Of a DNA stretch of 64,000 bases, positions 2 to 30,448 are shown piece by piece; positions within the stretch are counted from its first letter, which is position 1; each line of letters starts with the position of its first letter. Made by a program: the position numbers and the translations under genes. A model generated the notes under the pieces. It did not search any database. It had not been told where the DNA came from and saw nothing but the letters and a program-made list of their open reading frames with translations. Origin of the DNA: Elusimicrobiota bacterium (lineage in GTDB: Bacteria > Elusimicrobiota > Elusimicrobia > UBA1565 > UBA9628); the NCBI GenBank assembly GCA_016212825.1, contig JACRDS010000026.1:31413-95412 (forward strand), written 5' to 3'.

Positions 2-52
2 GACCTGGTGATCGCGCCCAAGGTCCTGCTGCAGTCGGAGCTCCTGCCATGA
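2..52 (+). CDS. 3' end of an upstream gene that is truncated by the window edge
   Basis: The open frame from position 2 reads ...DLVIAPKVLLQSELLP and stops at TGA 50-52. It overlaps the ATG of the next gene as ATGA. Confidence 0.3.
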   Translation, partial: DLVIAPKVLLQSELLP

Positions 53-1275
53 GACGGCTCCTGGCCCTGGCGTGGATCCTGGCCGCCCCTGCGGGCGCGG
101 TCGAGGTCGACACCCTCTTCAAGGCCCAGGTCCTGGGCGGCCAGTACTTCTTCTCGGGCCAGAAGTCCGACCTGGCCGGCAACGCCTCGGTTCTGGCGGC
201 GCCGGCCCTCAAGTTCGGCGAGGAGTTCGCGCTCCTGCCCGTGGCGCAGGCCTCCTACCAGGGCGCCAAGAGGATCGTGGACCTGGCCGGCGCCGGCACG
301 CTCTTCCAGGAGCAGATGGACTACCGCGCCGCGGCGCGGGCCGTCTGGGCCCCCCGGGATTCCCCGTGGCGCCTGAAGCCCTCCTTCACCTACAAGTACG
401 AGCTGCTCAAGGAGACCAAGGACGAAGACTGGGGCGGCGGGCTCTTCGACTATCAGAAGTGGTCTTTCGGGACCGAGGCCGAATACGTCTGGCGCGAGCC
501 CTTCTCCTGGCGCCTGGGGGTGGACTACTACGAGGTCAGCTTCCCGAACTACACCAGCCTGGAGTCCCAGGCCGCCCTGCAGTTCCAGGGCCAGAGCCTG
601 GCCCGGGAGCTGGTCGGCGACCATGTCCTCGACACCCAGAACGTGGGCGTGAGCCTGGCCCTCGACGGCCCCCTGCACGAGCGGGTGACCTGGGAAGGGT
701 CGGCGGCCGTCACCTACCGGCGCTTCCCGCGCCAGCGCGTGGTGGACTCGGTGGGGGGACTCACCGGCGACTCCCGCCAGGACGTCTATACCGCGGCCCG
801 GCTCGCGGCCCGCATGCCCGCGGAGCTCAACCGGGACCTGCGCGTGCTCGGCGCCCTGGAGCTGGGCTTCGCGTACAACGCTTCGGACCAGAACAGCTAC
901 GACGCTGCCGGCGTGCGCTACACCCCGTACTACTACAACTACGGGGAGTGGCGTCTGGAGCCGTCTCTCAAGTTCCTGGCCGGGCCGCAGGGGCCGGGGA
1001 CCCGCCCCATGGTTCTCGAGCTCACCGGCTCCTGGTGGCGCCGGCGCTATCCCTACCGGACCGCCCAGGACGCGGCCGGGGCCTACGGCAACGGCGGCCT
1101 GCACACGGCCGGCTGGTCAGTGGGGGCGAACCTGAGCTATCCCATGCTGAGGCGCTGGAGCCTCGTGCTCGACGCCCGGCTCGCCCGGACCTCGTCCAAC
1201 CAGGATTTCGAGCAGTTCTACCGCTACAACTATTCCTCGGCGAACTACCTCTTCGGGGTCAGCTACGAATACTAA
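49..1275 (+). CDS. Outer-membrane beta-barrel protein (hypothetical), encoded immediately upstream of the giant T9SS cargo gene
   Basis: N-terminal signal peptide MRRLLALAWILAAPAGA. Aromatic-rich alternating pattern. The C-terminus ends ...GVSYEY, the terminal-aromatic signature of OM barrels. 408 aa. Confidence 0.5.
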   Translation: MRRLLALAWILAAPAGAVEVDTLFKAQVLGGQYFFSGQKSDLAGNASVLAAPALKFGEEFALLPVAQASYQGAKRIVDLAGAGTLFQEQMDYRAAARAVWAPRDSPWRLKPSFTYKYELLKETKDEDWGGGLFDYQKWSFGTEAEYVWREPFSWRLGVDYYEVSFPNYTSLESQAALQFQGQSLARELVGDHVLDTQNVGVSLALDGPLHERVTWEGSAAVTYRRFPRQRVVDSVGGLTGDSRQDVYTAARLAARMPAELNRDLRVLGALELGFAYNASDQNSYDAAGVRYTPYYYNYGEWRLEPSLKFLAGPQGPGTRPMVLELTGSWWRRRYPYRTAQDAAGAYGNGGLHTAGWSVGANLSYPMLRRWSLVLDARLARTSSNQDFEQFYRYNYSSANYLFGVSYEY

Positions 1276-1276
1276 G

Positions 1277-4200
1277 ATCAAGCTGAGCGCGCTCCTGGCC
1301 GCGGCCTGCCTCTTCCTGGCGGGGGGGGCGGCGTCTGCCAGGACCTGGACCGGCGGCAACGGCGACGGGAACTGGTCCCAGCCGCCCAACTGGAACCCCA
1401 TCGGGGTCCCGATCATCGGCGACGACGTGATCATCGACATGAGCACCACCGTCTTCATCTCGGCCGGCGCCGCGATCCCGCCGCTGAATTCCCTGACCCT
1501 GGGCGACGCCGGGGGCAGCTTCGCGCCCACCCTCTGGCTCTCGACCGGGATCGCGGTCAGCGGGCCGGGCGGCGTGTCCCGCTTCTACGCCGGCGCGACC
1601 CTCCTCGCCGATACCTCCGCGCAGCTGACCTTCACGAACCTGGTGCTGGCCGCCGGCTCGAGCATCACCTACACCAGGCCCGGGGCGTCCGGCCCGCCGC
1701 CGGCCGGCTCCGGGGCCTTCATCAACCTGCGCATACTCGATACCCTGACCGTGCAGGCGGGCGCCACGATCACGGCGTACGGCCTGGGCTATCCCGCGGT
1801 GGGCGGCCCGCAGCCCGGCGCCACCGCCATCTACGGAGGCGGCGGGGGCGGACACGGCGCGGCCGGAGGCCTGGGCGGCCAGCCCGGGGCGGGCGGCGGC
1901 GTCGGCGGCCAGTCCTACGACGCCCTCATCACGCCCGGGGACTACGGCTCCGGCGGAGGCCTGGGCGCGAACATCCGCCCCGCCGCGGCGGGCGGCGGCT
2001 TCATCCTCATCGATGCCGGCAGCGCGACCATAGACGGCCTCATCACCGTCTCCGGCGCCGACGCCCCGGCGGCCGCGGACTGGGGGGGAGGGGGCGGCGC
2101 GGGCGGCGCGGTGCGCCTGCGCGCCGCCTACCTCTACGGGCAGGGCAGCATCCTGGCTGGCGGCGGGGCCGGCGGCTCCGGCGCGCTCGGCGGCGGCGGC
2201 GGCGGCGCGGGGGGCCGCATCGCCGTGGCCGTGACCGGGCCCTACGACACGCTGACCTCGACGCTGACCATCCGGCCCTGGGGCGGCGCGGGAGGCGGCG
2301 GTCCCGATCCCGGCGTGTGGGGCAGCACCGGGAGCGTGCACATGAACCCCGCGCACTGGACGGGAGGGGCCGGTCCCGCCTCCCCCAACGCCGTCTTCTT
2401 CGCCAACTGGTACGCCACCGCGCCGGCGGCGGGGGTCACGGTGGTGTTCGGCTCGTCGGGGACCACGGACTGCTTCTGGGACCTCCCCTTCACCGTGGTC
2501 ATGGGCAGCGTCGCCCTGCTCGCCGCCTATCCGAGCACGGTCACGATCGCCAATAACCTCGCCGTGTCGGGTTCCTGGACCATGGCCGGCGGGACCGTGG
2601 CCATGACCGGCGGCCTGAACCTCTTCGTCGGCGGGGACGTGGCCCAGTCCGGCGGGCGCTTCGCCATGCCCGCCGGGACCTTCGTCCTTTCCGGGAACAA
2701 CCCGCAGAACGCCTCCTTCACGCCGGACTCCTTCTTCAACAACTTCACGGCCAACGCGCCGCCCGCCGGGGTCGGGAACCTCAACCTGCTCTCCGACCTG
2801 GCCGTGCGCGGGAACATGGGGGTGGGCCTCAACAACACGCTGGTCCTGGGCGCGGGGCGGACCCTGCGCGTGGGGGGCAACTGGCCCTGGGTCGGCATGG
2901 GCCGCATCAGCGCCGACCCCGCCAGCCAGATCGTGGCCGACGGCAGCGCGGTCCAGATCTGGCAGACCCCTCCCAACGGGCTGGGGAGGCTCCGGGTCTC
3001 CAACACGGGCGGGGGCGTGAGCCTGGCCGCCGGGTCCTGGACGCTGGGCGGCCCCGGAGCGTCCAGCGAGCTGCTGGTCGACACCGCGGCGGTGCTGAGC
3101 ATCGCCGGCTCCAGCCTGAGCGTCTCCGGGGACTGGCTCAACTACGGCTCGGTGGACGTCTCCGCCAGCACCGTGGCGTTCATCTCCGCCGCCGCAGACC
3201 AGTACATCGTGGCGGGAGCCTCCTTCAACATCGTGGCGGTCAACAAGCCGGGACGGACCCTCTCCCTTTCCACGGAGGCCGTGGTGGCCAGCTCCGTGAG
3301 CGTCAACGGCGGGACCTTCGACCTGCTCTCCTCCACCATCACGGTCGGGGGGGACTGGCTCCAGACTCCGGCCGCCCTGGTGCGCGGGGGGGCGAGCACG
3401 GCGATCTTCAGGGGGACGCGCAGCCAGAGGCTGACCCTCCTGGCGGGCAGCTCGTTCTACAACCTCATCTCCTCGGCCAGCGGGTCGGCGGTCATCCTGT
3501 CGAGCCACCTGGTGGTGGCCAACCGGCTGGAGGTCGGCGGCGGCACCCTGCAGATCTCGAGCCGCACGGTCCTGGTCCTGGGGGACGTGGCGCAGGGCCT
3601 CGGCTCCACTGTGGTCAGCGGGGGCTCCACCGTCACCCTGGCGGGCGCCGCCCCCCAGAGCCTGGGCGCCTGGGCCCTGGACACCGTGGTCATAGACAAC
3701 AGCGACCCGGCCGGCGTGCGGCTGAGCACGGACCTGGTCGTGGGCTCCAGCTTCACCATCCTCTCCGGCCGCGCCTTCGACGCGGCGGACCGGCGCCTGA
3801 CCATGCGCGGCTCGGGCTGGCAGACGGCCGGCGCGGTCTACCTCTCCTCCAATCCGGCCCATGCCGTGCGCTGGGACCCCGCGGGCGGCACCCTGTGGGT
3901 GGCGGCCGGGAGCACGGTCAACGCCCGCGTGACGGTCTCCACCAACGCGACGGTGCGGCTCCTGGGGGACCTGGACCTGCGCGGCTTCGGCAACCTCCTC
4001 GACGTCCAGGCCGGCGCCAGCATCATCAACGCCGCGGGCGGCTCGTCCATCACCTTCCACGACACCGCGGACCTGGCGCCCTCGGCGGGCGTGAACTGGA
4101 CCTACGGCGGCAACGTCGGACAGTCCTGGCTCGTCTTCGAGGGGACGGGGTCGGCGCGCGGCGCCGCCATCTCCAGCAACACCCTGGGCAACCTCATGGT

Positions 4201-7200
4201 GCGGCTCTCCGGGGCGACCTCCACCTTCACCCATCCCGACCTGGCGCTCAGCAGCCACGTGGTGGTCGCCTCGGGCGTGTTCAAGCCGGCGGGGAACCGG
4301 ACGCTCACCCTCAAGGGGGACTTCCTGCAGACCGGCGGCACCATCGACTACGTCTCCGCGGGCACGGGGACGGTGCGTCTGGCCGGCTCCGGTCCGCAGG
4401 CCCAGCGGGTCTCCCTGGCCGCCGGGCACGCCCTGCAGGCCTTCACCCTGGCGGGGTCGACGCAGGTCACGGCCCTCTCGGACCTCAACATCCGGGGCGA
4501 CTTCCGCGTCCTGGGAGGCACCTTCGCGGCGGGCGCCAACATCCTGAGCGTGGGCGGCGCCTTCTACGCGCCTTCCTCCGCGGCCTTCCTGGCCCAGGGC
4601 AGCACCCTGACCCTGGACGGCGGCCGGAACATCCCCCCCGCGACCTTCCAGAGCCTGACCTACGCGGCCGGGCAGACGTTCCACGGCTTGAGCGTGGAGG
4701 TGTCGAGCGCCGCGTTCTCCGCGGGCTTCCAGGCCGACGCGTTCACGAGCCGCGTGGCGGGCAGCACCCTGGCCTTCGCCTCCGGAGCGACCTCCACCGT
4801 GGGCGACCTGCGCCTCTCCGGGAGCCCGGGCGGCGGCCGCATCATCCTGCGCCCCATCACCCCCGCCGTGCCCTGGCGCCTCGCCGTGCTGGCTTTCTCG
4901 AGCGCCTCCGCGGTGGACGTGTCGTCCTGCGACGCCTCAGTCGGCCTGACCGTGCAGGCCAACGACGGCAAGAGCCTGGATTCCGGCGGCAACAGCAACT
5001 GGAACTTCAAGCCCAGCCTCCGGGTCCTGCCGCCCGGCCCCCAGCAGGCCGGGACCCCCTTCGGCGTGGCCGTCCAGGCCGTGGATTCGTCGAGCAACCC
5101 GGTCGCGAGCGCCGCCTTCCCCGTGGCCCTGACCTGGACCGAGCTCTACGTCTCGACGCCGCCGCCCCAGAGCCTGGTCAACGGCGCCACGGTGTTCAGC
5201 AACGTGGTCCTGCGCACGGCCCAGACCACGACCATCTCCCCGCAGCCGGACGCCCAGGCCTATTCGGTCGCCGGGACCGCTGTCGCCGTCGGCCCCGGCC
5301 CGCTGGCGCGCCTGCAGCTGCTCCTGCCCGGGGAGAGCCCCCAGCCCGGCTCCTTCCCGGGCAAGGCGGGGCAGGTGGAGGTCATCGCCGCTGGTCAGCC
5401 CATCCTGGTGCGGGTGCGCGGCACCGACCCGTACTGGAACCTGGATCCCGTCGCGCCCGCCGACCTCGTGCAGGTCTCCACCACGGCCGCGCTGGCCTCC
5501 AACCTGCCCCAGAGCACGGCCCTCGCGGCGGGAGCCACGGCCTTCACGTCCGTGGTCTTCCTGTCCAGCGCCTCCGGGGTGACCCTGGCGGCCAGCGACC
5601 TGAGCAACGGCGCGGTCACGGGCGACGTCAGCACGGTCTTCTCCGTCTTCGCGGCCCAGTCCTCCTCGCCGACGCTCTCCATCTCCATCCCCGCCTACAG
5701 CCTGGTCCTGACCCTCGGCGGGGCCATCAGCGGGACGGCCGCGGACACGGTGGCCGTCTCCCGGGTGAGCGTCGCCGTGCAGCGCAAGGACAGCGGCCTG
5801 TTCTTCACCTGGATCCCGCCGGCCTTCGGCTCCGCTTCCCCGGTCTTCTCCACCGCCGCCGTCGTCCCCTACCTCGGCACTCCGGTCCAGTGGTCCCTGC
5901 CGTTCGCGGATGCCGCGCTCAGCGATCAGACCAGCTACTATGTCCTGGCCCGGGCGACCAACCCGAGCAGCAACCTGACCGTGGCGGAGAGCACCTTCAC
6001 CTTCTCCACGTCGACCCTGCAGGGCGGCTCGGCTGCAGACGGCGGGGGCGCGGCCGTGGCGCTGACCAGCGCGGCCTACGGCTGCCAGCTCCTGGTGAGC
6101 ACCGTGGTCTTCACGGCCGGGCCGCTGGGCATCTCCCCCGGCGGCGCCGTGGCGGTCCACTGGCCGGACGGCTGGACCCGGCCCCTGAGCACGGGCGCGG
6201 CCGACCCGCCGAGCGCTCCGGGCGTCCTCTTCGTGGGAGCGGCCGGATACTCCATCGATTTCAGCCCGCCGGCCGCGGGCAGCACGACGCTCGGGGACAA
6301 CTGGGTCGTCTGGCGCCCCGGGGCGGGCCTGGCGCCGGGGGCGAGCGTCGTGTTCAAGCTCCTGGGGCTTCCGCCGGCCGGCCTCTCCGGCTCCGCCGCG
6401 GGCTTCCAGGTCCTGACCCAGGGGGGGCCTCAGGGCCGGCTCAAGTCCATCGCCGCGCCTCCCGCGCTGCCCCTGCCCGCCGGACCCGCGGCGCGCGTGG
6501 TCTTCGAGCCTTCCGGGCCCCTGGCCCTGGGCCTTCTGCAGGACTCGGCCACCATGCAGGTGCGCGTGACGGATCTCTGCGGGGCGTCCACGGTCACCGT
6601 GGCCATGACCACCGTGTCTTTGGCCGCGGGGGCGCCCGGCAACCCCGACTACACCGCGCTCTTCTTCTCCACCGGCGGGACCGCCCTGGCCGGGCCGAGC
6701 CTGTACATCCCGGTCGGCCGGAGCTCCTCATCCGCGCAGTTCTACTACCGGACCTCGACCGCCGGGGTCTCCTCCGAGCTGCTCATGGCCTCTGCGGTGA
6801 GCCTGAGCACCGCGCTGGTCCCCGCGGCCCGGCCCGTGAGCCTGCTCCCGGCCGGCGCGGCCTTCACCGGGGTCTCGGTGGACACGGGCGTGGCCACCCC
6901 GGGACTCTCGACCGTCACGCTGGCCGCGGGCGCTTCGTCGGGGGCCGTGGTCGGCTTCACGCCGCCCGACCTCTCCCTGCGCTGGACCGTGACCATATCG
7001 ACGAGCCAGGCCGATCCCGTCCGCGCGGTGTTCCAGCGCTCCGGGACCGGCGACCCGGGGCGCTCCGTGGTCTGGACCGGCCTGGATGAGAGCGCCGCTC
7101 CGTCCCGCTGGGCCGCACCCGGCTCCTATGTCGTGCGCCTCTGCCTGGACGGCTGTGCCGTGGCGGACCGGTCCCTGAGGGTCGTCCTGTCCCCGGCGGC

Positions 7201-10200
7201 CTTCCTCTTCGGGACGGTGCGCTCGACCGGGGCCTACGCCGCGGTGCGGGCCTACGGCCCCGGGGCCTCCTACGGCAGCTTCGCCGCGGCCAGCGCCACG
7301 GGCTATTTCGAGCTCCGCGGCCTGCAGAACGGCGGCCTCTACACCGTCCAGGCCTCGACCACGGTCTCCTCCATGGGACAGTCCGTGCCCCTGAGCGTCT
7401 CCTCATCCGGCGTCACCGCCTCGGCCGCCGGCGTGGACATCGGGTCCATCCCCTCCCCCCCGCCGGCCCGGCTGCGCCCGGCCCTGCGCCGGCCCTGGGC
7501 CGCGCCCGGCGAGCTCTGGGGCTCGGTGCGGCTCCACGACGCCGGCTATGTGCGCACGGCTCTGGGGACCCTGCACTACTCTTCCGCGTCCATGAGCTCG
7601 GACGACGGCGCCCGGGCGTTCGGCGGGACCTCCAGCACCTGGACGGTGCTGGCCGCCCCGCCCGGAGTCTATGACGCCGAATTCAGCGTGCCCGGCGTCG
7701 GCCTCTCCACCCGGGTCGCGGGCCTCGCGCTGGCCGCGGGCACGCTCACCGACCTGCCCCTGAGCCTGGGGCGCAAGGCCGAGGTCTCCGGCTCCGTGGT
7801 CCTGCCGGCCACGACGACCTTCGGGGCCTGGGTGAGCGTGGAGGCCCGCCTGGCCGGGTCCAGCGTCCCGGCGGCCTTCGGCGGCGCCGCGGTCCCCTGC
7901 GCTTCCTGCGGGCCGGTCCCGGACCTCAAGAGCGCGGCCTACGCCCTCTACGGCCTCGACCCCGGGACCTGGACCTTCACCGCGCGCAGCCCGGGCCTCC
8001 TCGCGGCCTCGAGCACGGCCTATCTGGCGCAGGGCCAGGCCCTGGCGGGCCTGGACCTGGCGCTCTCCAGCGCGGGGGCGCTCTCCGGGTCCTTGACCGT
8101 GCGGGGCGACACCAGCGGTCTGGGCGGCAACTGCCCGGGCGGCGGCCCGGGCCTGTGCCTCCTCGCGGAGGCCTGGTCTCCGGCCACCTTCGCCGCGGCC
8201 TCGGCGCGCGTCGTCCTGAGCACGGGCCCGGCGCCCGCCGTCAGCACCTTCTCCATCGCGGGGCTCGCGGACGGGGAGTACCTGTTGACCGCGCGCCTGG
8301 GCGGCTACAACGACGCGCGCAGCAGCGCCTCCGTGGCGGGCGGGACGGGGACCGCAGCCCTGGTCCTGACGCGCGACGACGCGCATCTGGCCGTGGCCCT
8401 GCGCCTGCCCGGCGGGCCGCATCCGGTCTCCGACTTCCAGCGCGCGGCCCTGCTGCTGCGCCGCCCCGGCGCGGCGCCGCTGGTCATCCCGGACCTCACC
8501 GCGGGCACGACCGTGGACTTCCACCCGTCCAGCGCGGTCTGGCACTCACCGTCCCTGCCGCCCGGCGACTACCTCTGCGACGCCTTCTACGGCCGCACCG
8601 GGATGTGGGCCGGGGCCGGGGCGCTGCTGACCCAGGGCGCCACCGCGGTGCTGAGCCTGGACCTCTCCGCGGCCACCGCCTCCCTGCGCGGCCAGGTCTC
8701 CTGGGCCGGAGGCGTGAGCTTCGCCAGCGGCAGCTTCACGGTCAGCGTCTCTTCCCTCCCGGGCCTGGCCGCCTTCTCCCGCACCTCGCGCTACTGCCTC
8801 TTGGGCTCGACCGTGCCGGTCTCGGTCGCGGCCCTGCACCTGGAGCTGCTGCCGGTTCGGCCGCGCGCGGGAGTCCCGGCCGTTCTCTCCGGGCCGCTCT
8901 ATCCGGCCCCTTCCACGGGCTGCGCCGCGCTGGCCCTCTCGGACCCGGACGGAGGCCCCAACCCCGCGCACGGCTACGTGGCGGCCATCGCGCCGGACGG
9001 CTCCTTCCTGTTCAGCGACGTCCCCCCCGGGCAGTACCTGTTGCGCAGCAACGCGGAGCTCGACGACAATCCGGGCGACGGAGCCGAGCTGGCGGTCGCG
9101 GCGCAGAGAGTGGTCGTCAGCACGGGCAGCGCGCCCGTGGCGGTGCGCCTGGAGGCCGGCTCCGGGATATCCGGAGCGGTGGTCCTGCCGCCCCAGACCA
9201 GCGTCAGCCGCGGCTTCAGCGTGGTCCTGCGCGACGCCGCGGGGACCGCCCTGGGCGAGGCCATAGCGGACACGGGCGGCACGGGCCGCGCCCCCTACCT
9301 CTTCGACCGGGTGGCCGACGGCTCCTACCTCGTCACGGTCCAGGACCTGGGGACTCCGGCCGCTTACGCGGGCGCGGCGCGGGCCGTGCAGGTGGCGGGA
9401 CTGGCCTTGTCCGGCATCGACCTGCCCGTGTCCATGACCGGAGCCCTGCGCGGGCGCCTGGCCCTGGAGACCCAGCGTCCCGACGGCACCCGCGCCTTCG
9501 TCCTGCTCGGGCCCGGGGGCGAGGTCCTGCTGCCGGCGGATTTCCGCATCGAGGCGCACGCGGACCCCTGGTTCCCCGGCGGGTTCGGCGAAACGGCCGG
9601 GCTCGACGGCTCCGGGGCCTTCACGGTCTCGGGCCTGCTCCCCGGGATCTACGAGCTGCGCTTCCTCTCCGGCGACACGGCCGCCGGCGCGGCCTCCGGC
9701 GGGATCAGCCTGGCGCCGTCGCGCCTGCCGGGACTGGTCGTGGCGGGCGGCCGGACCACGGACGCCGGCACCGCGCGCCTGCTCTCCGGGGTGAACCTGC
9801 GCGGCCGGGTCGTCGACGCCGGGGGCGCGGGCATCGCCGGCGTGCCGGTGGCGGCCCGTCCCTCGTCCCAGCAGGGCGGCGGCGCGGCCGCGGCTTCGGC
9901 GTTGTCCGACTCCAGCGGGGCCTTCATCCTGGGAGGCCTCGACCCCCGGACCCGGTTCTACGACCTCACGGCCGCGGACCGGGGCCGCACCGCGCCCGGC
10001 GACTCCCTGGTCCCCTACCAGAGCGCCGCCCTCCTCGGGGTGGACCTGAGCTCCGCCCCCGCGCCGGTTCTGCGCCTGTCCCCCGCGCCCTATTCCATCC
10101 GGGGCCGGCTGGCGGCGCCGGCGGGAGGGCCGGCCCTGTCCTGGCCGTTCGGCTCCAGGGGCGTCTCGGCGCCGGGAGCGCTGGTCTCCCTGCAGCGCTA

Positions 10201-11902
10201 CCGCGAGATTCCGGTGGAGAACCCGGTGGCCGACGCCGAGGCGCAGACCGGGCCCGATGGGGACTTCGTCCTGCCGGCCCTGGCCACGGGCACCTACCGG
10301 TTCTTCGCCTATGCCCAGGGCTACGCGGCCCTGGCCCGCGTGGCGGTGCTGTCCGGCGACCTGGACCTGGGGACCCTGACCTTGACCCGGGCGGCCATGC
10401 TCTCCGGGAGCCTGCGCCAGGCCGACGGCTCCGCGCCGAGCGCCTCGGAGGTGTCCGCGGCCGCGGCTGTGACCGAGGACCTGGGCGAAGTCCTCTTCGC
10501 GGACCTGGCCGCGGGCCCGGTGGCGCGCGGGGTCCCGGCCTACTCGGTCAGCGGCCTGCGGCCCGGAGTCCCCTACCGTCTGCTCCTGGTCGACGAGGGC
10601 GGCGCGGTGCAGTCCCCGCCCGAGGCGCAATCCGTGGTCATGAACTCGGCTTCGGAGTCGCGCGTCCTGGACGTCGTGTACCGTCCGACGCGGCCCCTGG
10701 TCAAGGCCGAGGCGCGGCGCAGCGGCGCCGGCCTGCGCCTGGCCTTCCAGCTCAGCCGCCCCCTGCGCAGCCGCACCGCGGCCGACGACGACCTCTCCGC
10801 CCTGCTCTCCACCATGAGCGCGGGGGGCAGCCTCGGCGAGGTCGCTCTATCGGCGGACCGGCGCTGGCTGACCGCGGTCTACACTCTGCCGGTGGGCGTC
10901 TCGGAATCGAGCTTCTCCGTGCGCCTGCGAGGCTACAGCTCCGTGGCGGACCCGTCGTCCCTGGACCCGGCCAACCCGGAGTTCCTGCTGCTCTCCACCG
11001 CGGCCTTCTTCTCCGGGGTGGACGGCTTCGCGCGGGCGCAGATGTCCAATTATTCGGGCGGGAGCCTGCCGGCCGGCAGCGAAGCGGGCCGCCTGGCCCT
11101 TCCGGGCGGCGCCTTCCGCGTGGAGGCCTCCAGCTCGGTGGAGGTCACCCTGCAGGTCTCGGCCGAGCCCCTGGCCAGGCTGGGCGCGGCGGCGGGGCCC
11201 CTGGGCACGCGCTTCCAGCCCTCGGCCTACCCGGCGCCTCTCCTGCGGGCCCTGGCCGCGGCGCCTCCGGACGTGCGGCCGCAGAGCTCCTTCTACGACG
11301 TGTCACTGCCGGCGGGAGTGAACACATCCCTGGCCCGGCCCGTGAAGCTGACCCTGGCCTACCCTGCAGGCGCGGACCCCTCCCGGCTCAACCTCTACTG
11401 GTACATTGCCGCGGCCAACCTCTACATCCTCCAGCAGGACGTCACGGGCGCTCCGCCCGTGATCGACGCGGCGAACCGCACCTTCACGGTCCACGTGAAC
11501 CACTTCTCGACTTTCGTGCTCTTCGAGACCGGGGTGGCCGTGATCTCGGGCAGCGCCTTCGCGGGAGGGGACGTCGAGGTCTTCAACTTCCCCAACCCCT
11601 TCGACCTCAGGGATAAGACGGTCATGGCCATCCACCCGGCCGCCGCCCTGACGACGCGGGGGACGGTGATCCGGGCGGCCCTGCCCGCGGACGCGGGGGG
11701 GGCCGCCGCCATCCACATCTACACCGTGGCCGGGGAGCGGGTGCGCACTTTGGACCTGGGACTCCTCGACGGCGGGGCCTACTATTATCAGTCCTGGGAC
11801 GGCCGCAACGACCAGGGCCGCGACGCGGCCACGGGCGTGTACCTCGGCGTGCTCAAGGTCGGCAGGCGCACCAAGACCTTCAAGATGGCGCTCATCAAAT
11901 GA
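1277..11902 (+). CDS. Giant secreted cell-surface protein of about 3,540 aa. It has an N-terminal Gly-rich beta-helix region, many Ig-like and carboxypeptidase-regulatory-like repeats, and a T9SS-type C-terminal sorting domain (Por_Secre_tail / FlgD-Ig-like)
   Basis: The reading frame is open from 1277, directly after the upstream stop (TAA 1273-1275). The segment 1277-1345 encodes IKLSALLAAACLFLAGGAASA, a signal peptide, followed by the W-T-G-G-N-G-D-G-N-W motif typical of large beta-helix adhesins. The first canonical start is GTG 1427. The C-terminus (...AIHIYTVAGERVRTLDLGLLDGGAYYYQSWDGRNDQGRDAATGVYLGVLKVGRRTKTFKMALIK) matches the T9SS CTD pattern. Confidence 0.8.
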   Translation: MKLSALLAAACLFLAGGAASARTWTGGNGDGNWSQPPNWNPIGVPIIGDDVIIDMSTTVFISAGAAIPPLNSLTLGDAGGSFAPTLWLSTGIAVSGPGGVSRFYAGATLLADTSAQLTFTNLVLAAGSSITYTRPGASGPPPAGSGAFINLRILDTLTVQAGATITAYGLGYPAVGGPQPGATAIYGGGGGGHGAAGGLGGQPGAGGGVGGQSYDALITPGDYGSGGGLGANIRPAAAGGGFILIDAGSATIDGLITVSGADAPAAADWGGGGGAGGAVRLRAAYLYGQGSILAGGGAGGSGALGGGGGGAGGRIAVAVTGPYDTLTSTLTIRPWGGAGGGGPDPGVWGSTGSVHMNPAHWTGGAGPASPNAVFFANWYATAPAAGVTVVFGSSGTTDCFWDLPFTVVMGSVALLAAYPSTVTIANNLAVSGSWTMAGGTVAMTGGLNLFVGGDVAQSGGRFAMPAGTFVLSGNNPQNASFTPDSFFNNFTANAPPAGVGNLNLLSDLAVRGNMGVGLNNTLVLGAGRTLRVGGNWPWVGMGRISADPASQIVADGSAVQIWQTPPNGLGRLRVSNTGGGVSLAAGSWTLGGPGASSELLVDTAAVLSIAGSSLSVSGDWLNYGSVDVSASTVAFISAAADQYIVAGASFNIVAVNKPGRTLSLSTEAVVASSVSVNGGTFDLLSSTITVGGDWLQTPAALVRGGASTAIFRGTRSQRLTLLAGSSFYNLISSASGSAVILSSHLVVANRLEVGGGTLQISSRTVLVLGDVAQGLGSTVVSGGSTVTLAGAAPQSLGAWALDTVVIDNSDPAGVRLSTDLVVGSSFTILSGRAFDAADRRLTMRGSGWQTAGAVYLSSNPAHAVRWDPAGGTLWVAAGSTVNARVTVSTNATVRLLGDLDLRGFGNLLDVQAGASIINAAGGSSITFHDTADLAPSAGVNWTYGGNVGQSWLVFEGTGSARGAAISSNTLGNLMVRLSGATSTFTHPDLALSSHVVVASGVFKPAGNRTLTLKGDFLQTGGTIDYVSAGTGTVRLAGSGPQAQRVSLAAGHALQAFTLAGSTQVTALSDLNIRGDFRVLGGTFAAGANILSVGGAFYAPSSAAFLAQGSTLTLDGGRNIPPATFQSLTYAAGQTFHGLSVEVSSAAFSAGFQADAFTSRVAGSTLAFASGATSTVGDLRLSGSPGGGRIILRPITPAVPWRLAVLAFSSASAVDVSSCDASVGLTVQANDGKSLDSGGNSNWNFKPSLRVLPPGPQQAGTPFGVAVQAVDSSSNPVASAAFPVALTWTELYVSTPPPQSLVNGATVFSNVVLRTAQTTTISPQPDAQAYSVAGTAVAVGPGPLARLQLLLPGESPQPGSFPGKAGQVEVIAAGQPILVRVRGTDPYWNLDPVAPADLVQVSTTAALASNLPQSTALAAGATAFTSVVFLSSASGVTLAASDLSNGAVTGDVSTVFSVFAAQSSSPTLSISIPAYSLVLTLGGAISGTAADTVAVSRVSVAVQRKDSGLFFTWIPPAFGSASPVFSTAAVVPYLGTPVQWSLPFADAALSDQTSYYVLARATNPSSNLTVAESTFTFSTSTLQGGSAADGGGAAVALTSAAYGCQLLVSTVVFTAGPLGISPGGAVAVHWPDGWTRPLSTGAADPPSAPGVLFVGAAGYSIDFSPPAAGSTTLGDNWVVWRPGAGLAPGASVVFKLLGLPPAGLSGSAAGFQVLTQGGPQGRLKSIAAPPALPLPAGPAARVVFEPSGPLALGLLQDSATMQVRVTDLCGASTVTVAMTTVSLAAGAPGNPDYTALFFSTGGTALAGPSLYIPVGRSSSSAQFYYRTSTAGVSSELLMASAVSLSTALVPAARPVSLLPAGAAFTGVSVDTGVATPGLSTVTLAAGASSGAVVGFTPPDLSLRWTVTISTSQADPVRAVFQRSGTGDPGRSVVWTGLDESAAPSRWAAPGSYVVRLCLDGCAVADRSLRVVLSPAAFLFGTVRSTGAYAAVRAYGPGASYGSFAAASATGYFELRGLQNGGLYTVQASTTVSSMGQSVPLSVSSSGVTASAAGVDIGSIPSPPPARLRPALRRPWAAPGELWGSVRLHDAGYVRTALGTLHYSSASMSSDDGARAFGGTSSTWTVLAAPPGVYDAEFSVPGVGLSTRVAGLALAAGTLTDLPLSLGRKAEVSGSVVLPATTTFGAWVSVEARLAGSSVPAAFGGAAVPCASCGPVPDLKSAAYALYGLDPGTWTFTARSPGLLAASSTAYLAQGQALAGLDLALSSAGALSGSLTVRGDTSGLGGNCPGGGPGLCLLAEAWSPATFAAASARVVLSTGPAPAVSTFSIAGLADGEYLLTARLGGYNDARSSASVAGGTGTAALVLTRDDAHLAVALRLPGGPHPVSDFQRAALLLRRPGAAPLVIPDLTAGTTVDFHPSSAVWHSPSLPPGDYLCDAFYGRTGMWAGAGALLTQGATAVLSLDLSAATASLRGQVSWAGGVSFASGSFTVSVSSLPGLAAFSRTSRYCLLGSTVPVSVAALHLELLPVRPRAGVPAVLSGPLYPAPSTGCAALALSDPDGGPNPAHGYVAAIAPDGSFLFSDVPPGQYLLRSNAELDDNPGDGAELAVAAQRVVVSTGSAPVAVRLEAGSGISGAVVLPPQTSVSRGFSVVLRDAAGTALGEAIADTGGTGRAPYLFDRVADGSYLVTVQDLGTPAAYAGAARAVQVAGLALSGIDLPVSMTGALRGRLALETQRPDGTRAFVLLGPGGEVLLPADFRIEAHADPWFPGGFGETAGLDGSGAFTVSGLLPGIYELRFLSGDTAAGAASGGISLAPSRLPGLVVAGGRTTDAGTARLLSGVNLRGRVVDAGGAGIAGVPVAARPSSQQGGGAAAASALSDSSGAFILGGLDPRTRFYDLTAADRGRTAPGDSLVPYQSAALLGVDLSSAPAPVLRLSPAPYSIRGRLAAPAGGPALSWPFGSRGVSAPGALVSLQRYREIPVENPVADAEAQTGPDGDFVLPALATGTYRFFAYAQGYAALARVAVLSGDLDLGTLTLTRAAMLSGSLRQADGSAPSASEVSAAAAVTEDLGEVLFADLAAGPVARGVPAYSVSGLRPGVPYRLLLVDEGGAVQSPPEAQSVVMNSASESRVLDVVYRPTRPLVKAEARRSGAGLRLAFQLSRPLRSRTAADDDLSALLSTMSAGGSLGEVALSADRRWLTAVYTLPVGVSESSFSVRLRGYSSVADPSSLDPANPEFLLLSTAAFFSGVDGFARAQMSNYSGGSLPAGSEAGRLALPGGAFRVEASSSVEVTLQVSAEPLARLGAAAGPLGTRFQPSAYPAPLLRALAAAPPDVRPQSSFYDVSLPAGVNTSLARPVKLTLAYPAGADPSRLNLYWYIAAANLYILQQDVTGAPPVIDAANRTFTVHVNHFSTFVLFETGVAVISGSAFAGGDVEVFNFPNPFDLRDKTVMAIHPAAALTTRGTVIRAALPADAGGAAAIHIYTVAGERVRTLDLGLLDGGAYYYQSWDGRNDQGRDAATGVYLGVLKVGRRTKTFKMALIK

Positions 11903-12852
11903 GGAAGCTCTGTCTGATGACGGCGGCGCTTCTCCTCGCCCCTCCGGGGTCCTTCGCCAGGGGCTCCGCGGACAAGGGCACCAGCGCGGCCGCCTTCCTC
12001 AAGCTGGGCGCCGGGGCCCGGGCCTCGGCCATGGGCGGGGCCTTCGCGGGCGTGGCCGACGACGCGGCGGCCGCCTACTACAACCCGGCCGGCCTGGCCT
12101 TCCTGAAGCGGCCGGAAGCGACGGGCATGCACGAGAGCCGCTACGCGGGCCTGGCCTACGACTACGCGACCGTGGCCGTGCCCCTGCTGGCCTGGGTGGA
12201 CACGCCCCGGCAGCGCAACGCCCGCGGCGTGGCCGCGCTCTCCGTCTACAGCCTCTCCGCGGGGGGCATCGAGCGGCGCGGGACCACGGAGACGGACCAG
12301 CCTCTGGACACCTTCGGGGCGCGGGACTTCGCCTACGCCCTGAGCTACGCCTACAACCCGGCCGGCACGGGGCTGGGGCTGGGCGGCACGGCCAAGGTGG
12401 TGGATTCCTCCATCGACCGCGCCTCCGGACGGGCCCTGGCCGTGGACGCGGGCGCGCTCTACCGGGCGGACCGGCTCTCCGCCGGCCTGGGCTGGCGCCA
12501 CCTGGGCACGCGGCAGAAGATCGGCAGCGTCGCCGACCCGCTGCCCTTCGCCTGGTTCGCGGGCGGGGCCTGGCGCTTCCCTGGCGGGCTCCTGGCCTCG
12601 CTGGAGCTGGACCTGCCCCGCGACGGGAACCTGGCCGGGGCCGTGGGCGGGGAGTACCGGCACGAGTTCGGGCGGCGCCTCTCCGGGACCGCGCGCCTGG
12701 GCTTCAACAGCGGCGTCCGGGACCCGGGGGGCTTGAGCGGATTCTCCCTGGGCTTCGGCCTGCGCTACGACATGGCGGACCTGGACTTCGCCTGGCTGCC
12801 GGGCGGCGAACTGGGGGATTCCTTCCGGTATTCGCTGCTGGTGCGGTTCTGA
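11899..12852 (+). CDS. PorV/PorQ-family (FadL-like) outer-membrane beta-barrel. Putative cognate T9SS partner of the upstream cargo
   Basis: Signal peptide. N-terminal motif AAFLKLGAGARASAMGGAFAGVADDAAAAYYNPAGLA, characteristic of the PorV/PorQ/FadL family. The C-terminus ends in F. Its start overlaps the stop of the giant gene (ATGA). Confidence 0.55.
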   Translation: MRKLCLMTAALLLAPPGSFARGSADKGTSAAAFLKLGAGARASAMGGAFAGVADDAAAAYYNPAGLAFLKRPEATGMHESRYAGLAYDYATVAVPLLAWVDTPRQRNARGVAALSVYSLSAGGIERRGTTETDQPLDTFGARDFAYALSYAYNPAGTGLGLGGTAKVVDSSIDRASGRALAVDAGALYRADRLSAGLGWRHLGTRQKIGSVADPLPFAWFAGGAWRFPGGLLASLELDLPRDGNLAGAVGGEYRHEFGRRLSGTARLGFNSGVRDPGGLSGFSLGFGLRYDMADLDFAWLPGGELGDSFRYSLLVRF

Positions 12853-12860
12853 GCGGCCGC

Positions 12861-13328
12861 TCAGTCCACGGAGACCAGCTCGGAGCCGTCTTCCATGGCT
12901 TTGGCCGCGGCCTTGCGGCCTTCGCCCCAGTCCTTGCGGGACTTGGCGATGACCTTGAGCTGGGCTGTGGGCTTGACCGCGGTCTCCTGGGCTGGGGCAC
13001 CCTTGTCGTCCCGGGCCGCCAGGCCGGCTTCGGGCTTGAGGCCGGAGAGGGCGTCTTCGGACGGGTTGGAGTTGAGGGCGTCCTTGAGGTCGCCGGAGAG
13101 TTTGAGGTCCAGCTCAGGCATCTGCAGCTCGATGGACTGTCCGCTGGCGATGCGCACCGCCGCGGTGATGCCGCCGTTGCGCTGGGTGAGCTGGCGGTGC
13201 AGGATCTGGCGCATGAGAGGGTCCTGGCTGGCCAGGGCCGATTCCTTGGAGGCGGACGCGGCGGGTCCCCCGAGGACCGGGGCCGCCGGCATCGCCGCCA
13301 GGAGCGCCATCAGGATGATCTGTTTCAT
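12861..13328 (-). CDS. Hypothetical secreted protein, 155 aa
   Basis: Signal peptide MKQIILMALLAAMPAAPVLG. No recognisable domain. Confidence 0.45.
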   Translation of the reverse strand: MKQIILMALLAAMPAAPVLGGPAASASKESALASQDPLMRQILHRQLTQRNGGITAAVRIASGQSIELQMPELDLKLSGDLKDALNSNPSEDALSGLKPEAGLAARDDKGAPAQETAVKPTAQLKVIAKSRKDWGEGRKAAAKAMEDGSELVSVD

Positions 13329-13424
13329 GTTCGCCTCTGCCCATAGGATAGCCGGCGGGAGGAGTCCGCGGCAGAGTCCTTGGTCCTTGGGGGGTCTAGG
13401 ACGAAAGTCCTATGCGGGGAAGGG

Positions 13425-14531
13425 CTATTTGCAGGTGCCGAAGAGACATTCCTTCTTGCGGACCGGGTCGGTCTTCTTCACGTCGGCGGACTGGCCGTCG
13501 AAGGCCTGGCGGCCGGAGACCCCGTCGTCCGCGGCCCCGGAGAGCTGGCTGGTGATGGCCTTGAGCAGGGCCGGGTCCTGGCGCAGGGCGCGCAGGTCCG
13601 TGGCCGAGGCGTTGCTGGCCAGCAGGGCCCGGTCCCTGAGGAAGGGGGACGAGTCCACGATACCGCCGATGAGCCAGGGGTCCTGGTCCTCGCCCGAGAG
13701 CCCCGACAGGCCGCTCCGCGCGTAATCCAGGCCGGGGTTCCGGTCGCGGCCCGTCCCGGCCGGGGGTCCCAGCGCGGCGCCGGACCGGTCCCGGTCCGGC
13801 GCGCGGCCATCGTCGGACCCTGCTTCCGGGGTCTGCTTCCAGAGCGTCTGCCCGCTCATGTCCCTGCCTTCGTTCGGGGGGGCGGGCGAGGGCGAGTCGA
13901 TCCCCACCCGGTCCCCGGCATGGGGGGATGCTTTCGAACCCCCGTCGTTCATCGCCACGACCGGAGGGCCGCCGGCGTCCCCGCTGTTGAGGAACATGCT
14001 GACTTCCTTGTTCCCGCTCTCGATGCCCTTGTCCGCCGCCTTGCCGGGGTCGGCGGACTGCTTCGCTTCGGTCTGGGCCTTGGCCAGGGTGCCCTCGATG
14101 TCCTTGAGGCACGCGGGGGACTGCAGGCAGTAGTCGAGGTCGGCGCCCGAGCTCGTGGAGCCTCCCGGGCAGTCGCTGAGGCACTGCAGCCAGTTCTGGT
14201 TGTTGAGGAACTTGTAGTCGCCGCCTTTGGCGTCCTGATATCTGGAGAGGAAGTCGGCCGTCTGCGCCTTGCACTTCGCGTCGTTGTCAGCGCACTTCGC
14301 GTTGATGAAGACCCAGTTGTCGGGGAGCTTGTAGGTGACGTCCCCGATCCTCACGGTGCGCTGGGCGATGGCGCCCGAGGAGGAGGAGACCTCTTTGCCT
14401 TCGTCGCAGACCGGCTGGCGGTCCAGGGTGAGGGCTTTGGGCTCGGAGCCGTCGGGGCACTTCGGGCCCGCAGCCTGGGCCGAGGCGCCCAAGACCGCCG
14501 CCAGCGCGAGATACGCCGTCACGGGAAGCAT
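13425..14531 (-). CDS. Hypothetical secreted Cys-rich protein, about 369 aa, with a long low-complexity disordered middle region
   Basis: The internal Met at 14531 starts a signal peptide, MLPVTAYLALAAVLGASAQA. About 10 Cys sit in the first 170 aa. A G/S/D/P-rich linker follows. The C-terminus is ...KKECLFGTCK. Confidence 0.5.
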   Translation of the reverse strand: MLPVTAYLALAAVLGASAQAAGPKCPDGSEPKALTLDRQPVCDEGKEVSSSSGAIAQRTVRIGDVTYKLPDNWVFINAKCADNDAKCKAQTADFLSRYQDAKGGDYKFLNNQNWLQCLSDCPGGSTSSGADLDYCLQSPACLKDIEGTLAKAQTEAKQSADPGKAADKGIESGNKEVSMFLNSGDAGGPPVVAMNDGGSKASPHAGDRVGIDSPSPAPPNEGRDMSGQTLWKQTPEAGSDDGRAPDRDRSGAALGPPAGTGRDRNPGLDYARSGLSGLSGEDQDPWLIGGIVDSSPFLRDRALLASNASATDLRALRQDPALLKAITSQLSGAADDGVSGRQAFDGQSADVKKTDPVRKKECLFGTCK

Positions 14532-22004: not shown

Positions 22005-22018
22005 GGCCCGGGGCCGCC

Positions 22019-27627: not shown

Positions 27628-27644
27628 CCCCGGCAAGGACAAGG

Positions 27645-27992: not shown

Positions 27993-27994
27993 GC

Positions 27995-29977: not shown

Positions 29978-29983
29978 GCGGAT

Positions 29984-30445: not shown

Positions 30446-30448
30446 CCA

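What the first reader, a model, noticed from the sequence alone, without database searches (positions are those of the whole stretch)
49..12852. Giant T9SS-type cargo flanked by two outer-membrane barrels, with an overlapping PorV/PorQ-family gene immediately downstream
The gene encoding the ~3,540-aa protein (the longest ORF here, about 10.6 kb) ends in a Por_Secre_tail-like CTD. It is preceded by a 408-aa OM barrel and followed, with a 4-nt ATGA overlap, by a 317-aa PorV/PorQ-like barrel. This recalls the sprB-sprF arrangement, where type-B CTD cargo needs a cognate PorP/SprF-like protein encoded downstream. That suggests a dedicated cargo-plus-shuttle module, possibly an adhesin or S-layer-like protein of a non-Bacteroidetes, high-GC lineage.
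Basis: partly seen in the sequence, partly recalled or inferred. Interest (0 to 1): 0.6.

Follow-up and report, generated by a model that had tools for sequence, protein, structure and literature searches.

The report
Giant surface protein with private PorV-like anchor
An uncultured Elusimicrobia bacterium carries a conserved operon in which a ~3,540-residue surface protein with a type-IX-secretion-like tail is flanked by two outer-membrane barrels, the downstream one a PorV relative; this pairing was known only from the Bacteroidota group, and it probably docks the giant protein on the cell surface.

Summary
Window 49-12852 encodes, on the + strand, a 408-aa outer-membrane beta-barrel, a ~3,541-aa secreted protein and a 317-aa barrel that overlaps it by ATGA.

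- **Downstream barrel:** it passes NCBIfam PorV_fam (120 bits, cutoff 90). Its AlphaFold model has 14 strands and best matches PorV from the two T9SS translocon structures.
- **Tail of the giant:** a FlgD_ig-type beta-sandwich, homologous to type-A CTDs (hhalign 99.7%) but with a ~20-aa insertion. It does not reach TIGR04183.
- **Organism:** an Elusimicrobia MAG, a phylum outside the lineages reported to have T9SS. No T9SS core gene lies in the 64 kb; the rest of the genome could not be checked.
- **Conservation:** in 21 of 21 orthologous Elusimicrobiota loci a giant CTD protein ends at the start of the PorV-like gene. In one lineage a FecR-domain protein and the 408-aa barrel precede the giant, translationally coupled to it.
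- **SprB/SprF analogy:** it fits the gene order only. There is no PorP/SprF hit and no type-B CTD hit.

Best reading: a cargo with its own PorV/PorQ-like receptor or anchor. How the cargo crosses the outer membrane is unresolved. I rate it a new variant of a known kind.

The parts
49..1275 (+). 408-aa outer-membrane beta-barrel of about 16-18 strands with no plug domain. It belongs to a small family named so far only from Elusimicrobia and matched by no Pfam or NCBIfam model.
   Evidence: No family hits. AlphaFold2 pLDDT 88.9, all-beta barrel. Only generic barrel matches in PDB, TM<=0.45. Homologues are 'hypothetical protein [Elusimicrobia]'. Only 469 representatives among 1.84 billion proteins. 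No profile similarity to the PorV-like barrel.
1277..11902 (+). Giant secreted protein gene, ~3,541 aa if it starts at ATC 1277. The first canonical start is GTG 1427, which would remove the signal peptide.
   Evidence: The frame is open from 1151 to 11902. ATC sits where L082 and L085 have ATG, one base after the barrel's stop codon. No promoter-like or terminator-like site lies between the genes.
1277..1339 (+). Predicted Sec signal peptide (IKLSALLAAACLFLAGGAASA, followed by RTW)
   Evidence: Read directly from the translation. Relatives have equivalent signal peptides.
1340..5620 (+). Variable N-terminal ~1,450 aa. It is Gly-rich and beta-helix-like, with W-x-G-G...NW...P...D-D-V motifs and no family hit.
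   Evidence: No Pfam hits. It is shared only with the closest relatives L082 and partly L005, and is replaced by other domains in L083 and L084. Residues 377-488 resemble the N-terminal domain fused to some 408-aa-barrel homologues.
5621..11581 (+). Conserved C-terminal ~2,000-aa 'stalk' containing CarboxypepD_reg-type Ig-like beta-sandwich repeats
   Evidence: BLASTP: residues ~1,450-3,543 align to every orthologue at 26-55% identity. The last ~1,250 aa also align to a second, 7,340-aa Kelch giant in L083. CarboxypepD_reg 73.7 bits; segment hits.
11582..11899 (+). C-terminal domain (CTD). It is a FlgD_ig / T9SS-type-A-like beta-sandwich (FPNPFDL ... WDGRND ... GVY ... KMALIK) with a ~20-aa insertion after FPNPF.
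   Evidence: FlgD_ig 35.2 bits, cutoff 27. All 15 orthologous CTDs hit the CTD ends of the PorU and PorZ models, and 13 of 15 hit TIGR04183 weakly. hhalign 99.7%, E 1e-26, to FCB-type CTDs.
11899..12852 (+). 317-aa PorV/PorQ-family outer-membrane barrel (14 strands, FadL-like), overlapping the giant gene by ATGA
   Evidence: NF033709 120.1 bits, cutoff 90. AlphaFold2 pLDDT 83.4 with 14 strands. Best PDB matches are PorV chains 8gl6_F (E 2.8e-13, TM 0.70) and 6h3i_F, then FadL and TodX. Overlap verified.

Best explanation
The region is the visible part of a conserved Elusimicrobiota operon. Its full order is a FecR-domain periplasmic protein (just upstream of the window), the 408-aa barrel, the giant protein, and the PorV-like barrel.

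The giant protein is exported by Sec. This is inferred from the signal peptide.

It has three regions, all shown here:
- a lineage-variable distal N-terminal region;
- a conserved ~2,000-aa stalk of Ig-like beta-sandwiches;
- a C-terminal beta-sandwich homologous to T9SS type-A CTDs.

The most likely mechanism is inferred by analogy. The CTD binds the extracellular face of its own, co-translated PorV/PorQ-like 14-strand barrel. This mirrors three known cases: PorV binds cargo CTDs at the T9SS translocon, the uncleaved CTDs of PorU and PorZ hold those proteins on PorV and PorQ, and type-B CTD proteins are held by PorP/SprF-like barrels. The barrel would then act as a private receptor or anchor that keeps the giant fibre on the outer membrane. 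In short, this is a 'cargo plus cognate barrel' module, several of which exist per genome.

The step that carries the polypeptide across the outer membrane is not identified. Either an unrecognised T9SS-like translocon elsewhere in the genome does it, or, in this lineage, the translationally coupled 408-aa barrel with its FecR-like partner contributes.
For: - **PorV family and fold:**
- **CTD homology to T9SS CTDs:**. The best NCBIfam matches of all 15 orthologous CTDs are the CTD ends of PorU (best E 8.6e-8) and PorZ (best E 9.4e-7). These are the two T9SS proteins whose CTDs are retained (PMC11285876).
- **Strict adjacency:** 21 of 21 orthologous Elusimicrobiota loci have a CTD-bearing giant ORF ending at the barrel gene. 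A 4-nt overlap is seen in many.
- **Multiple modules per genome:** L083 has a second pair (a 7,340-aa Kelch giant plus a UPF0164/PorV-like barrel), and L085 has tandem modules. Paralogous CTDs and barrels within L083 are both diverged, at 46% and 43% identity.
- **Same pairing with small cargo:** in other Elusimicrobia, PorV-like paralogues sit next to small CTD proteins.
- **Pairing beyond this phylum:** at least 19 of 61 distant loci (Zixibacteria, Ignavibacteria and unclassified MAGs) have diverse CTD cargo directly upstream of a PorV-family gene. A Spirochaetia locus, L067, was found separately by phmmer and NCBIfam.
- **Operon structure:** there are no internal promoter-like or terminator-like sites, and a convergent gene follows at 12861-13328.
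- **FecR-like + barrel + giant coupling:** six loci counting the window, whose own FecR gene lies off its edge. The barrel and giant genes have overlapping or 1-nt-spaced stop and start codons.
Against: - No physical interaction was tested. AlphaFold multimer was not available.
- The window CTD fails the curated TIGR04183 model.
- The barrel is far below the PorV, PorQ and PorV2 equivalog cutoffs and slightly below the Pfam PorV cutoff (24.9 against 27).
- FadL-superfamily barrels also transport hydrophobic molecules, so the barrel could have another role.
- No T9SS core gene is in the window or in the flanks seen, so the translocation route is unknown.
- The 408-aa barrel and FecR pair is absent within 10 kb of the giant gene in L001, L008, L015 and L016. 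It therefore cannot be a universal requirement of the module.
- The giant gene lacks a canonical start codon in this genome and is frameshifted in the complete genome of L001. Expression is not guaranteed.
Confidence: 0.6

Rival explanations
1. This is ordinary T9SS cargo in a genome with a complete, so far unnoticed T9SS (SprA/Sov, PorKLMN, PorU). The 317-aa barrel would be the organism's general PorV shuttle, or a PorQ, that merely happens to lie next to a large substrate.
For: The CTD is homologous to type-A CTDs. The barrel belongs to the PorV family and has the PorV fold. Smaller CTD proteins exist in Elusimicrobia, as expected if there is a general pathway.
Against: - Several PorV-like paralogues occur per genome, each glued to its own giant or CTD gene. 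This is not the pattern of one general shuttle.
- Equivalog scores are 43-72 bits against cutoffs of 220-325.
- No T9SS core gene was seen in 64 kb of the window, nor in the few Elusimicrobiota flanks whose genes were annotated (L001, L082-L085 and parts of L034 and L066).
- The literature states that T9SS genes are absent outside FCB phyla (PMC11285876).
- No paper links Elusimicrobia with PorV or T9SS.
Confidence: 0.2
2. This is a type-V-like (autotransporter or two-partner-like) pathway. The 408-aa barrel, helped by the periplasmic FecR-domain protein, would be the channel or assembly site through which the unfolded giant protein reaches the surface. The PorV-like barrel would only tether the C-terminus afterwards.
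For: - The barrel and giant genes are translationally coupled in every locus that has the barrel: stop and start overlap or lie 1 nt apart.
- FecR-like, barrel and giant genes are conserved together.
- Some family members (P0244, P0249, P0251) are single polypeptides with a signal peptide, a beta-helix-like N-terminal domain, a Pro/Ala/Glu linker and the barrel. This is an autotransporter-like layout.
- That N-terminal domain resembles giant residues 377-488 (E 2e-6).
Against: - There are no Autotransporter, ShlB, POTRA or Omp85 hits, and only generic barrel fold matches.
- The pair is absent next to orthologous giant genes in L001, L008, L015 and L016.
- The conserved part of the giant is its C-terminus, not an N-terminal TPS-like signal.
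- L083 and L084 giants that follow the barrel have unrelated N-termini.
Confidence: 0.15
3. The PorV-like barrel is a FadL-type channel for hydrophobic substrates, and the giant protein is an unrelated neighbour. The adjacency would be a matter of gene order, not function.
For: FadL and TodX are the next-best structural matches after PorV. There are weak Toluene_X and UPF0164 Pfam hits.
Against: - Adjacency is 21 of 21 across deeply divergent Elusimicrobiota, including Endomicrobium, Elusimicrobiaceae and Ca. Obscuribacterium.
- Start and stop codons overlap.
- The same pairing recurs with different cargo and in other phyla.
- The top fold hits are PorV, in one case with a CTD substrate bound.
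Confidence: 0.05

Closest known systems
PorU-PorV and PorZ-PorQ pairs of the T9SS attachment complex (Porphyromonas gingivalis, Flavobacterium johnsoniae)
   Same: A surface protein with a type-A-like beta-sandwich CTD is partnered with a 14-strand PorV/PorQ-family barrel. The Elusimicrobial CTDs match the CTD ends of the PorU and PorZ models best. The barrel's best structural matches are PorV chains. From my own knowledge, porU and porV are adjacent genes in Bacteroidota.
   Different: The cargo here is a 3,541-aa fibre-like protein with no peptidase C25 or PorZ beta-propeller region; only the CTD part of those models matches. The barrel fails the PorV and PorQ equivalog cutoffs. The host phylum is not known to have a T9SS. 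The CTD carries a ~20-aa insertion.
SprB-SprF and other type-B CTD / PorP-like pairs (Gorasia et al. 2022, PMC9143113, cited)
   Same: A very large surface protein is followed immediately by the gene for a cognate outer-membrane barrel that anchors it through the CTD. There are many such pairs per genome.
   Different: The barrel is not PorP/SprF: there is no PF11751 hit. The CTD is type-A/FlgD_ig-like, not type B: there is no TIGR04131 hit and only faint CHU_C.
PorV bound to a cargo CTD at the SprA translocon (PDB 8GL6, 6H3I)
   Same: The fold is the same as the 317-aa barrel (TM 0.70 and 0.68, 20-21% identity).
   Different: No SprA-like gene is in the window. The barrel here is encoded once per cargo rather than once per genome.
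UPF0164 (PF03687) FadL-like outer-membrane proteins of Treponema
   Same: Many orthologues of the 317-aa barrel carry precomputed PF03687 hits. The window protein scores 20.0 bits against a cutoff of 21.4.
   Different: From my own knowledge, the Treponema proteins are discussed as FadL-like transporters. A link to CTD cargo has not, to my knowledge, been described for them.

Membership tests
PorV/PorQ family (NCBIfam NF033709) | Score at or above the curated cutoff of the family HMM (90 bits) | tested here: met
   120.1 bits, E 1.4e-34, covering model positions 1-326 of 326.
PorV/PorQ family (NCBIfam NF033709) | 14-strand FadL-like barrel fold closest to PorV | tested here: met
   AlphaFold2 model with 14 strands, pLDDT 83.4. 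Top Foldseek PDB hits are PorV chains 8gl6_F and 6h3i_F.
PorV proper, PorQ proper, PorV2 (NF033710, NF033711, NF052325 equivalogs) | Score at or above the equivalog cutoff (250, 220 and 325 bits) | tested here: not met
   43.4, 67.8 and 72.3 bits. Pfam PorV PF19572 scores 24.9 against a cutoff of 27.
T9SS type-A CTD (TIGR04183 / PF18962 Por_Secre_tail) | HMM match at the extreme C-terminus above the cutoff | tested here: not met
   The window CTD has no TIGR04183 hit even at E<=1. Of 15 orthologous CTDs, 13 hit weakly (best E 2.4e-5). Pfam Por_Secre_tail hits 9 of 15, best E 0.016.
T9SS type-A CTD (TIGR04183 / PF18962 Por_Secre_tail) | Homology to bona fide CTD beta-sandwiches | tested here: met
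   hhalign 99.7%, E 1e-26, to CTDs from FCB-phylum loci. Those CTDs hit PorU 6za2, PorZ 5m11 and cargo CTD 8glj_D in PDB. FlgD_ig scores 35.2 bits against a cutoff of 27.
T9SS cargo (functional definition) | The genome encodes the T9SS core (SprA/Sov, PorK/L/M/N, PorU) | not testable with these tools
   None is in the 64-kb window or in the flanks seen. A review states that T9SS genes are absent outside FCB phyla.
T9SS cargo (functional definition) | N-terminal Sec signal peptide | tested here: inconclusive
   A clear signal-peptide sequence starts at 1277, but the codon there is ATC. The first canonical start, GTG 1427, lies beyond it.
PorP/SprF with type-B CTD module | Barrel matches PF11751 and cargo matches TIGR04131 | tested here: not met
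   No PF11751 hit at E<=0.01. No TIGR04131 hit. CHU_C scores only E 0.081 for the window CTD.
PorP/SprF with type-B CTD module | The cognate barrel is encoded immediately downstream of the cargo | tested here: met
   4-nt overlap, conserved in 21 of 21 loci.
Type V secretion (autotransporter / TpsB), considered for the 408-aa barrel | Autotransporter, ShlB/Omp85 barrel or POTRA domains | tested here: not met
   No Pfam or NCBIfam hit at all. Fold matches are generic, TM<=0.45.

The most novel reading that the evidence does not exclude
Elusimicrobiota may lack the T9SS core and use self-contained modules to export and display giant surface proteins. Each module would be a CTD cargo with its own PorV-like barrel, joined in some lineages by a new 16-18-strand barrel and a FecR-domain partner. 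This would be a T9SS-independent, CTD-based surface-display system. Similar cargo/barrel pairs occur in Spirochaetia and in several candidate phyla. It could represent the evolutionary precursor of the T9SS attachment complex.
Probability: 0.2. Interest if true: 0.8.

Novelty: new variant of a known kind. Interest (0 to 1): 0.55.

Why it matters
CTD recognition by PorV-type barrels is currently understood only as part of the Bacteroidota/FCB type IX secretion system. Here the two parts that touch each other in that system, the CTD and the PorV-family barrel, occur as tightly coupled gene pairs, one barrel per cargo. They are found throughout a phylum for which no T9SS has been reported.

- If the core T9SS is really absent, CTD-barrel docking is an older, autonomous way to fix very large proteins to an outer membrane. 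The T9SS attachment complex would then be a derived use of it.
- If the core is present, the known range of T9SS extends beyond the FCB group.

Either way the module gives a simple genomic rule for predicting surface-exposed giant proteins in uncultured diderm lineages: a giant ORF with a FlgD_ig-type tail followed by a PorV-family gene. It also names two uncharacterised partners, the 408-aa barrel family and the FecR-like protein, for experiments.

Tried and rejected
- **Exact look-ups:** the window's PorV-like protein and NCBI's 311-aa version found no contig on record. The source contig could not be extended upstream to see the FecR gene.
- **RNA genes:** Rfam and tRNA scans of the window found nothing. 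The low-GC stretch at 24-34 kb is therefore coding, not rRNA.
- **Homologue search:** the third search, using the last 700 aa of the giant, returned only 3 hits and no name for the giant protein.
- **Giant protein against PDB sequences:** no hits. FecR-like protein against PDB: no hits.
- **Are the two barrels paralogues?** Profile-profile comparison of the 408-aa barrel with the PorV-like barrel gave probability 0.3%, so this was rejected.
- **Is the 408-aa barrel always part of the module?** Rejected. It is absent within 10 kb in L001, L008, L015 and L016.
- **Are the upstream CTD proteins in distant loci PorU or PorZ?** Rejected. Only their CTD parts match.
- **Is the + strand ORF 12895-13725 a fourth operon gene?** Rejected. 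The conserved gene there is the convergent 12861-13328 (-).
- **Literature searches:** searches for Elusimicrobia with PorV or T9SS found nothing relevant.
Full report
**What is in the sequence**

The window has ~72% G+C over the finding. It comes from an uncultured Elusimicrobia bacterium. The 317-aa and 408-aa proteins are 100% identical to NCBI records named 'PorV/PorQ family protein [Elusimicrobia bacterium]' and 'hypothetical protein HY926_02705 [Elusimicrobia bacterium]'. Both sit on a 102,712-bp contig.

Three + strand genes fill 49-12852.

- Gene 1 is 49-1275 (408 aa).
- Gene 2 occupies a frame open from 1151 to 11902.
- Gene 3 is 11899-12852 (317 aa) and overlaps gene 2 by ATGA.

No promoter-like or terminator-like site separates the three genes. 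A convergent gene at 12861-13328 (-) is conserved in a relative, so the operon ends at 12852.

The giant frame has no ATG, GTG or TTG before GTG 1427. An obvious signal peptide (IKLSALLAAACLFLAGGAASA, then RTW) starts at ATC 1277, one base after the barrel's TAA.

The closest relatives have ATG at exactly that position (L082: TGAcATG; L085: TGAgATG). Other loci vary:

- L084 has an ATG that overlaps the end of the barrel gene.
- L012 has a GTG that overlaps the stop codon.
- L083 has ATT at the equivalent place.

The barrel and giant genes are therefore always translationally coupled. In this genome the start is a near-cognate codon or a sequence error.

**The three proteins**

*408-aa protein.* It has no Pfam or NCBIfam hit. 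It models confidently (pLDDT 88.9) as a plug-less beta-barrel of about 16-18 strands. It resembles solved barrels only generically, with TM<=0.45. Its family is small, with 469 representatives among 1.84 billion proteins. Every homologue that carries a source name is from Elusimicrobia.

*Giant protein.* Pfam hits occur only in the last third: CarboxypepD_reg-type Ig-like domains and a C-terminal FlgD_ig domain. Comparison with orthologues shows two regions:

- The last ~2,000 residues are conserved everywhere, at 26-55% identity.
- The first ~1,450 residues are shared only with close relatives and are replaced by other domains elsewhere.

*317-aa protein.* It passes NCBIfam PorV_fam (120.1 bits, cutoff 90) but is far below the PorV, PorQ and PorV2 equivalog cutoffs. 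Its model (pLDDT 83.4) has 14 strands. The best PDB matches are the PorV chains of the T9SS translocon structures, 8gl6_F (a complex with the RemA CTD bound) and 6h3i_F. FadL and TodX follow.

**The C-terminal domain**

The window's CTD reaches Pfam FlgD_ig (35.2 bits, cutoff 27) but not TIGR04183.

I aligned 15 orthologous CTDs (alignment A3). The results were:

- All 15 hit the CTD ends of the PorU and PorZ models.
- 13 of 15 hit TIGR04183 weakly.
- A profile-profile comparison with CTDs taken from Ignavibacteria, Zixibacteria and other FCB-type loci gives 99.7% probability (E 1e-26). The Elusimicrobial form has a ~20-residue insertion after the FPNPF motif.
- That FCB-type profile hits the solved CTDs of PorU (6za2), PorZ (5m11) and a T9SS cargo (8glj_D).

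The tail is therefore a divergent homologue of type-A CTDs. It is not type B: there is no TIGR04131 hit, and CHU_C is only faint.

**Conservation**

A scan of one genome per species returned 80 loci with PorV-family genes.

In the window and in all 20 loci with an orthologous barrel (40-61% identity), a giant ORF with a homologous CTD ends at the start of the barrel gene. That is 21 of 21. These 20 loci are L001-L020. They include MAGs labelled Endomicrobium, Elusimicrobiaceae and Ca. Obscuribacterium magneticum.

L001 lies in a complete 3.8-Mb genome and is syntenic with the window: phosphoglucomutase and enolase follow in both.

The upstream barrel belongs to a further conserved pair. In L082, L083, L084, L085 and L012, a ~500-aa secreted FecR-domain protein precedes the barrel, which in turn precedes a giant gene. 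The window begins 48 bases before the barrel gene, so its own FecR gene is cut off.

Several observations bear on how these units are organised:

- Modules can be tandem. L085 reads giant (6,719 aa), PorV-like, FecR-like, barrel, giant.
- L083 has a second pair built on a 7,340-aa Kelch protein.
- The FecR/barrel pair is absent within 10 kb in L001, L008, L015 and L016.

The universal core is therefore the giant protein plus the PorV-like barrel.

**Beyond the orthologues**

Other Elusimicrobia have PorV-like paralogues next to small CTD proteins.

Among the 61 more distant loci (Zixibacteria, Ignavibacteria and unclassified MAGs), at least 19 have a CTD-bearing ORF directly upstream of the PorV-family gene. 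A Spirochaetia locus (L067) has a CTD protein that ends just before its PorV-like gene. The upstream ORFs checked by NCBIfam are diverse cargo, such as beta-helix proteins, a metalloprotease and glycosidase-like proteins. They are not PorU or PorZ.

'CTD cargo followed by its own PorV-family barrel' is thus a recurrent arrangement.

**Mechanism**

Shown here:

- a signal-peptide sequence;
- a type-A-like CTD;
- a PorV-fold barrel;
- strict genetic coupling;
- several modules per genome.

Inferred:

- The CTD docks on its cognate barrel, which holds the giant protein on the outer membrane. Three known cases serve as the model. PorV binds CTDs at the translocon. PorU and PorZ keep uncleaved CTDs within the attachment complex with PorV and PorQ (review PMC11285876; the specific PorU-PorV and PorZ-PorQ pairing is from my own knowledge). 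Type-B CTD proteins are anchored by PorP-like barrels (PMC9143113, cited).
- The variable N-terminal part would be the distal, functional end of a long stalk.

Unknown: how the polypeptide crosses the outer membrane.

- No T9SS core gene is in the window. The remainder encodes glycolysis, Lgt, regulators, an Hdr/Mvh-type hydrogenase cluster and TCA-type enzymes.
- A review states that T9SS genes are absent outside FCB phyla.
- I found no paper connecting Elusimicrobia with PorV or T9SS.
- I could not scan a whole Elusimicrobial genome.

The 408-aa barrel is a candidate contributor in this lineage. Some family members are fusions of a signal peptide, a beta-helix-like domain, a Pro/Ala/Glu linker and the barrel, which is an autotransporter-like layout. 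That domain resembles residues 377-488 of the giant (E 2e-6 in a two-sequence comparison). The patchy distribution of the barrel argues against a general role.

**Verdict**

NCBI already names the barrel a PorV/PorQ family protein, so the parts are not unknown. I did not find the following described anywhere:

- the conserved operon;
- its one-barrel-per-cargo logic in a non-FCB phylum;
- the associated FecR-like and novel-barrel pair.

I rate it a new variant of a known kind, of moderate interest. Interest would be higher if the T9SS core proves absent.

Noticed in passing
window 1273-1285 (also L083 11220-11260): The giant gene has ATC where the relatives L082 and L085 have ATG, one base after the upstream stop codon. 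L083 has ATT at the equivalent position. This is either a near-cognate start with reinitiation coupling or an assembly error. Gene callers place the start too far downstream (GTG 1427 here, 11499 in L084).
   Followed up: partly
P0244, P0249, P0251 (homologues of window 49-1275): Some members of the 408-aa barrel family are 700-950 aa long. They have their own signal peptide, one or two beta-helix-like N-terminal domains and a Pro/Ala/Glu-rich linker ahead of the barrel, which is an autotransporter-like layout. The N-terminal domain resembles residues 377-488 of the giant protein.
   Followed up: partly
L067 8043-10852; L080 2-2394; L052, L042, L060, L028, L072 and others: In Spirochaetia, Zixibacteria, Ignavibacteria and unclassified MAGs, diverse CTD-bearing proteins lie directly upstream of a PorV-family gene. 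They include glycosidase-like, metalloprotease and beta-helix proteins and ORFs of about 2,000-2,300 aa. The cargo/private-barrel pairing is not limited to Elusimicrobia.
   Followed up: partly
L083 1-6054; L085 1-8353: Further modules occur in the same genomes: a 7,340-aa Kelch/fn3 protein and a 6,719-aa protein, each followed with a 4-nt overlap by its own PorV/UPF0164-like barrel. The Kelch giant shares the last ~1,250 aa with the window's giant.
   Followed up: partly
L001 3490-10001: In the complete Elusimicrobiota genome CP096137.1, the orthologous giant gene is split into two overlapping frames. The gene caller reports 1,743 aa plus a 78-aa FlgD_ig fragment. This is a frameshift, either a pseudogene or a sequencing error.
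   Followed up: no
CTD alignment A3; L012, L014, L018, L019, L083 (second pair), L084: There are two CTD end types. One ends ...KMALIK at the stop codon, as in the window. The other carries a short extension, ...IIKGSGL or ...VVKDPKY(N/R). I did not test whether this correlates with barrel subtype.
   Followed up: no
window 23056-36881: A cluster encodes Hdr-like (CCG, 4Fe-4S), NuoE/NuoF-like, MvhD (FlpD) and NiFe-hydrogenase small and large subunits, plus a CBS + HATPase protein. G+C falls to 57-62% at 24-32 kb against ~72% elsewhere, which suggests foreign origin or strong compositional constraint. Group 3c hydrogenases are reported for some groundwater Elusimicrobia (bioRxiv 10.1101/765248).
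   Followed up: partly
window 18571-20132: Two tandem, overlapping prolipoprotein diacylglyceryl transferase (Lgt) paralogues of 263 and 261 aa.
   Followed up: no
window 21111-22951 (-): Two adjacent LysR-family regulator genes lie on the minus strand, just upstream of the hydrogenase/Hdr cluster.
   Followed up: no
window 12853-13725: The 276-aa + strand ORF (12895-13725) has no family hit and overlaps a 155-aa minus-strand gene (12861-13328). That minus-strand gene is conserved at the same place in L083 (39% identity, E 1e-18). The + strand ORF is probably spurious.
   Followed up: yes
window 39936-55138: A long same-strand run of central-carbon genes: acetate kinase, aminotransferase, PEP carboxykinase, citrate synthase, malic enzyme-PTA fusion, malate/lactate dehydrogenase, aconitase, isocitrate dehydrogenase and 2-oxoacid:ferredoxin oxidoreductase subunits.
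   Followed up: no
window 61481-62437: A 318-aa protein with a FlgO domain hit (PF17680, 29 bits).
   Followed up: no
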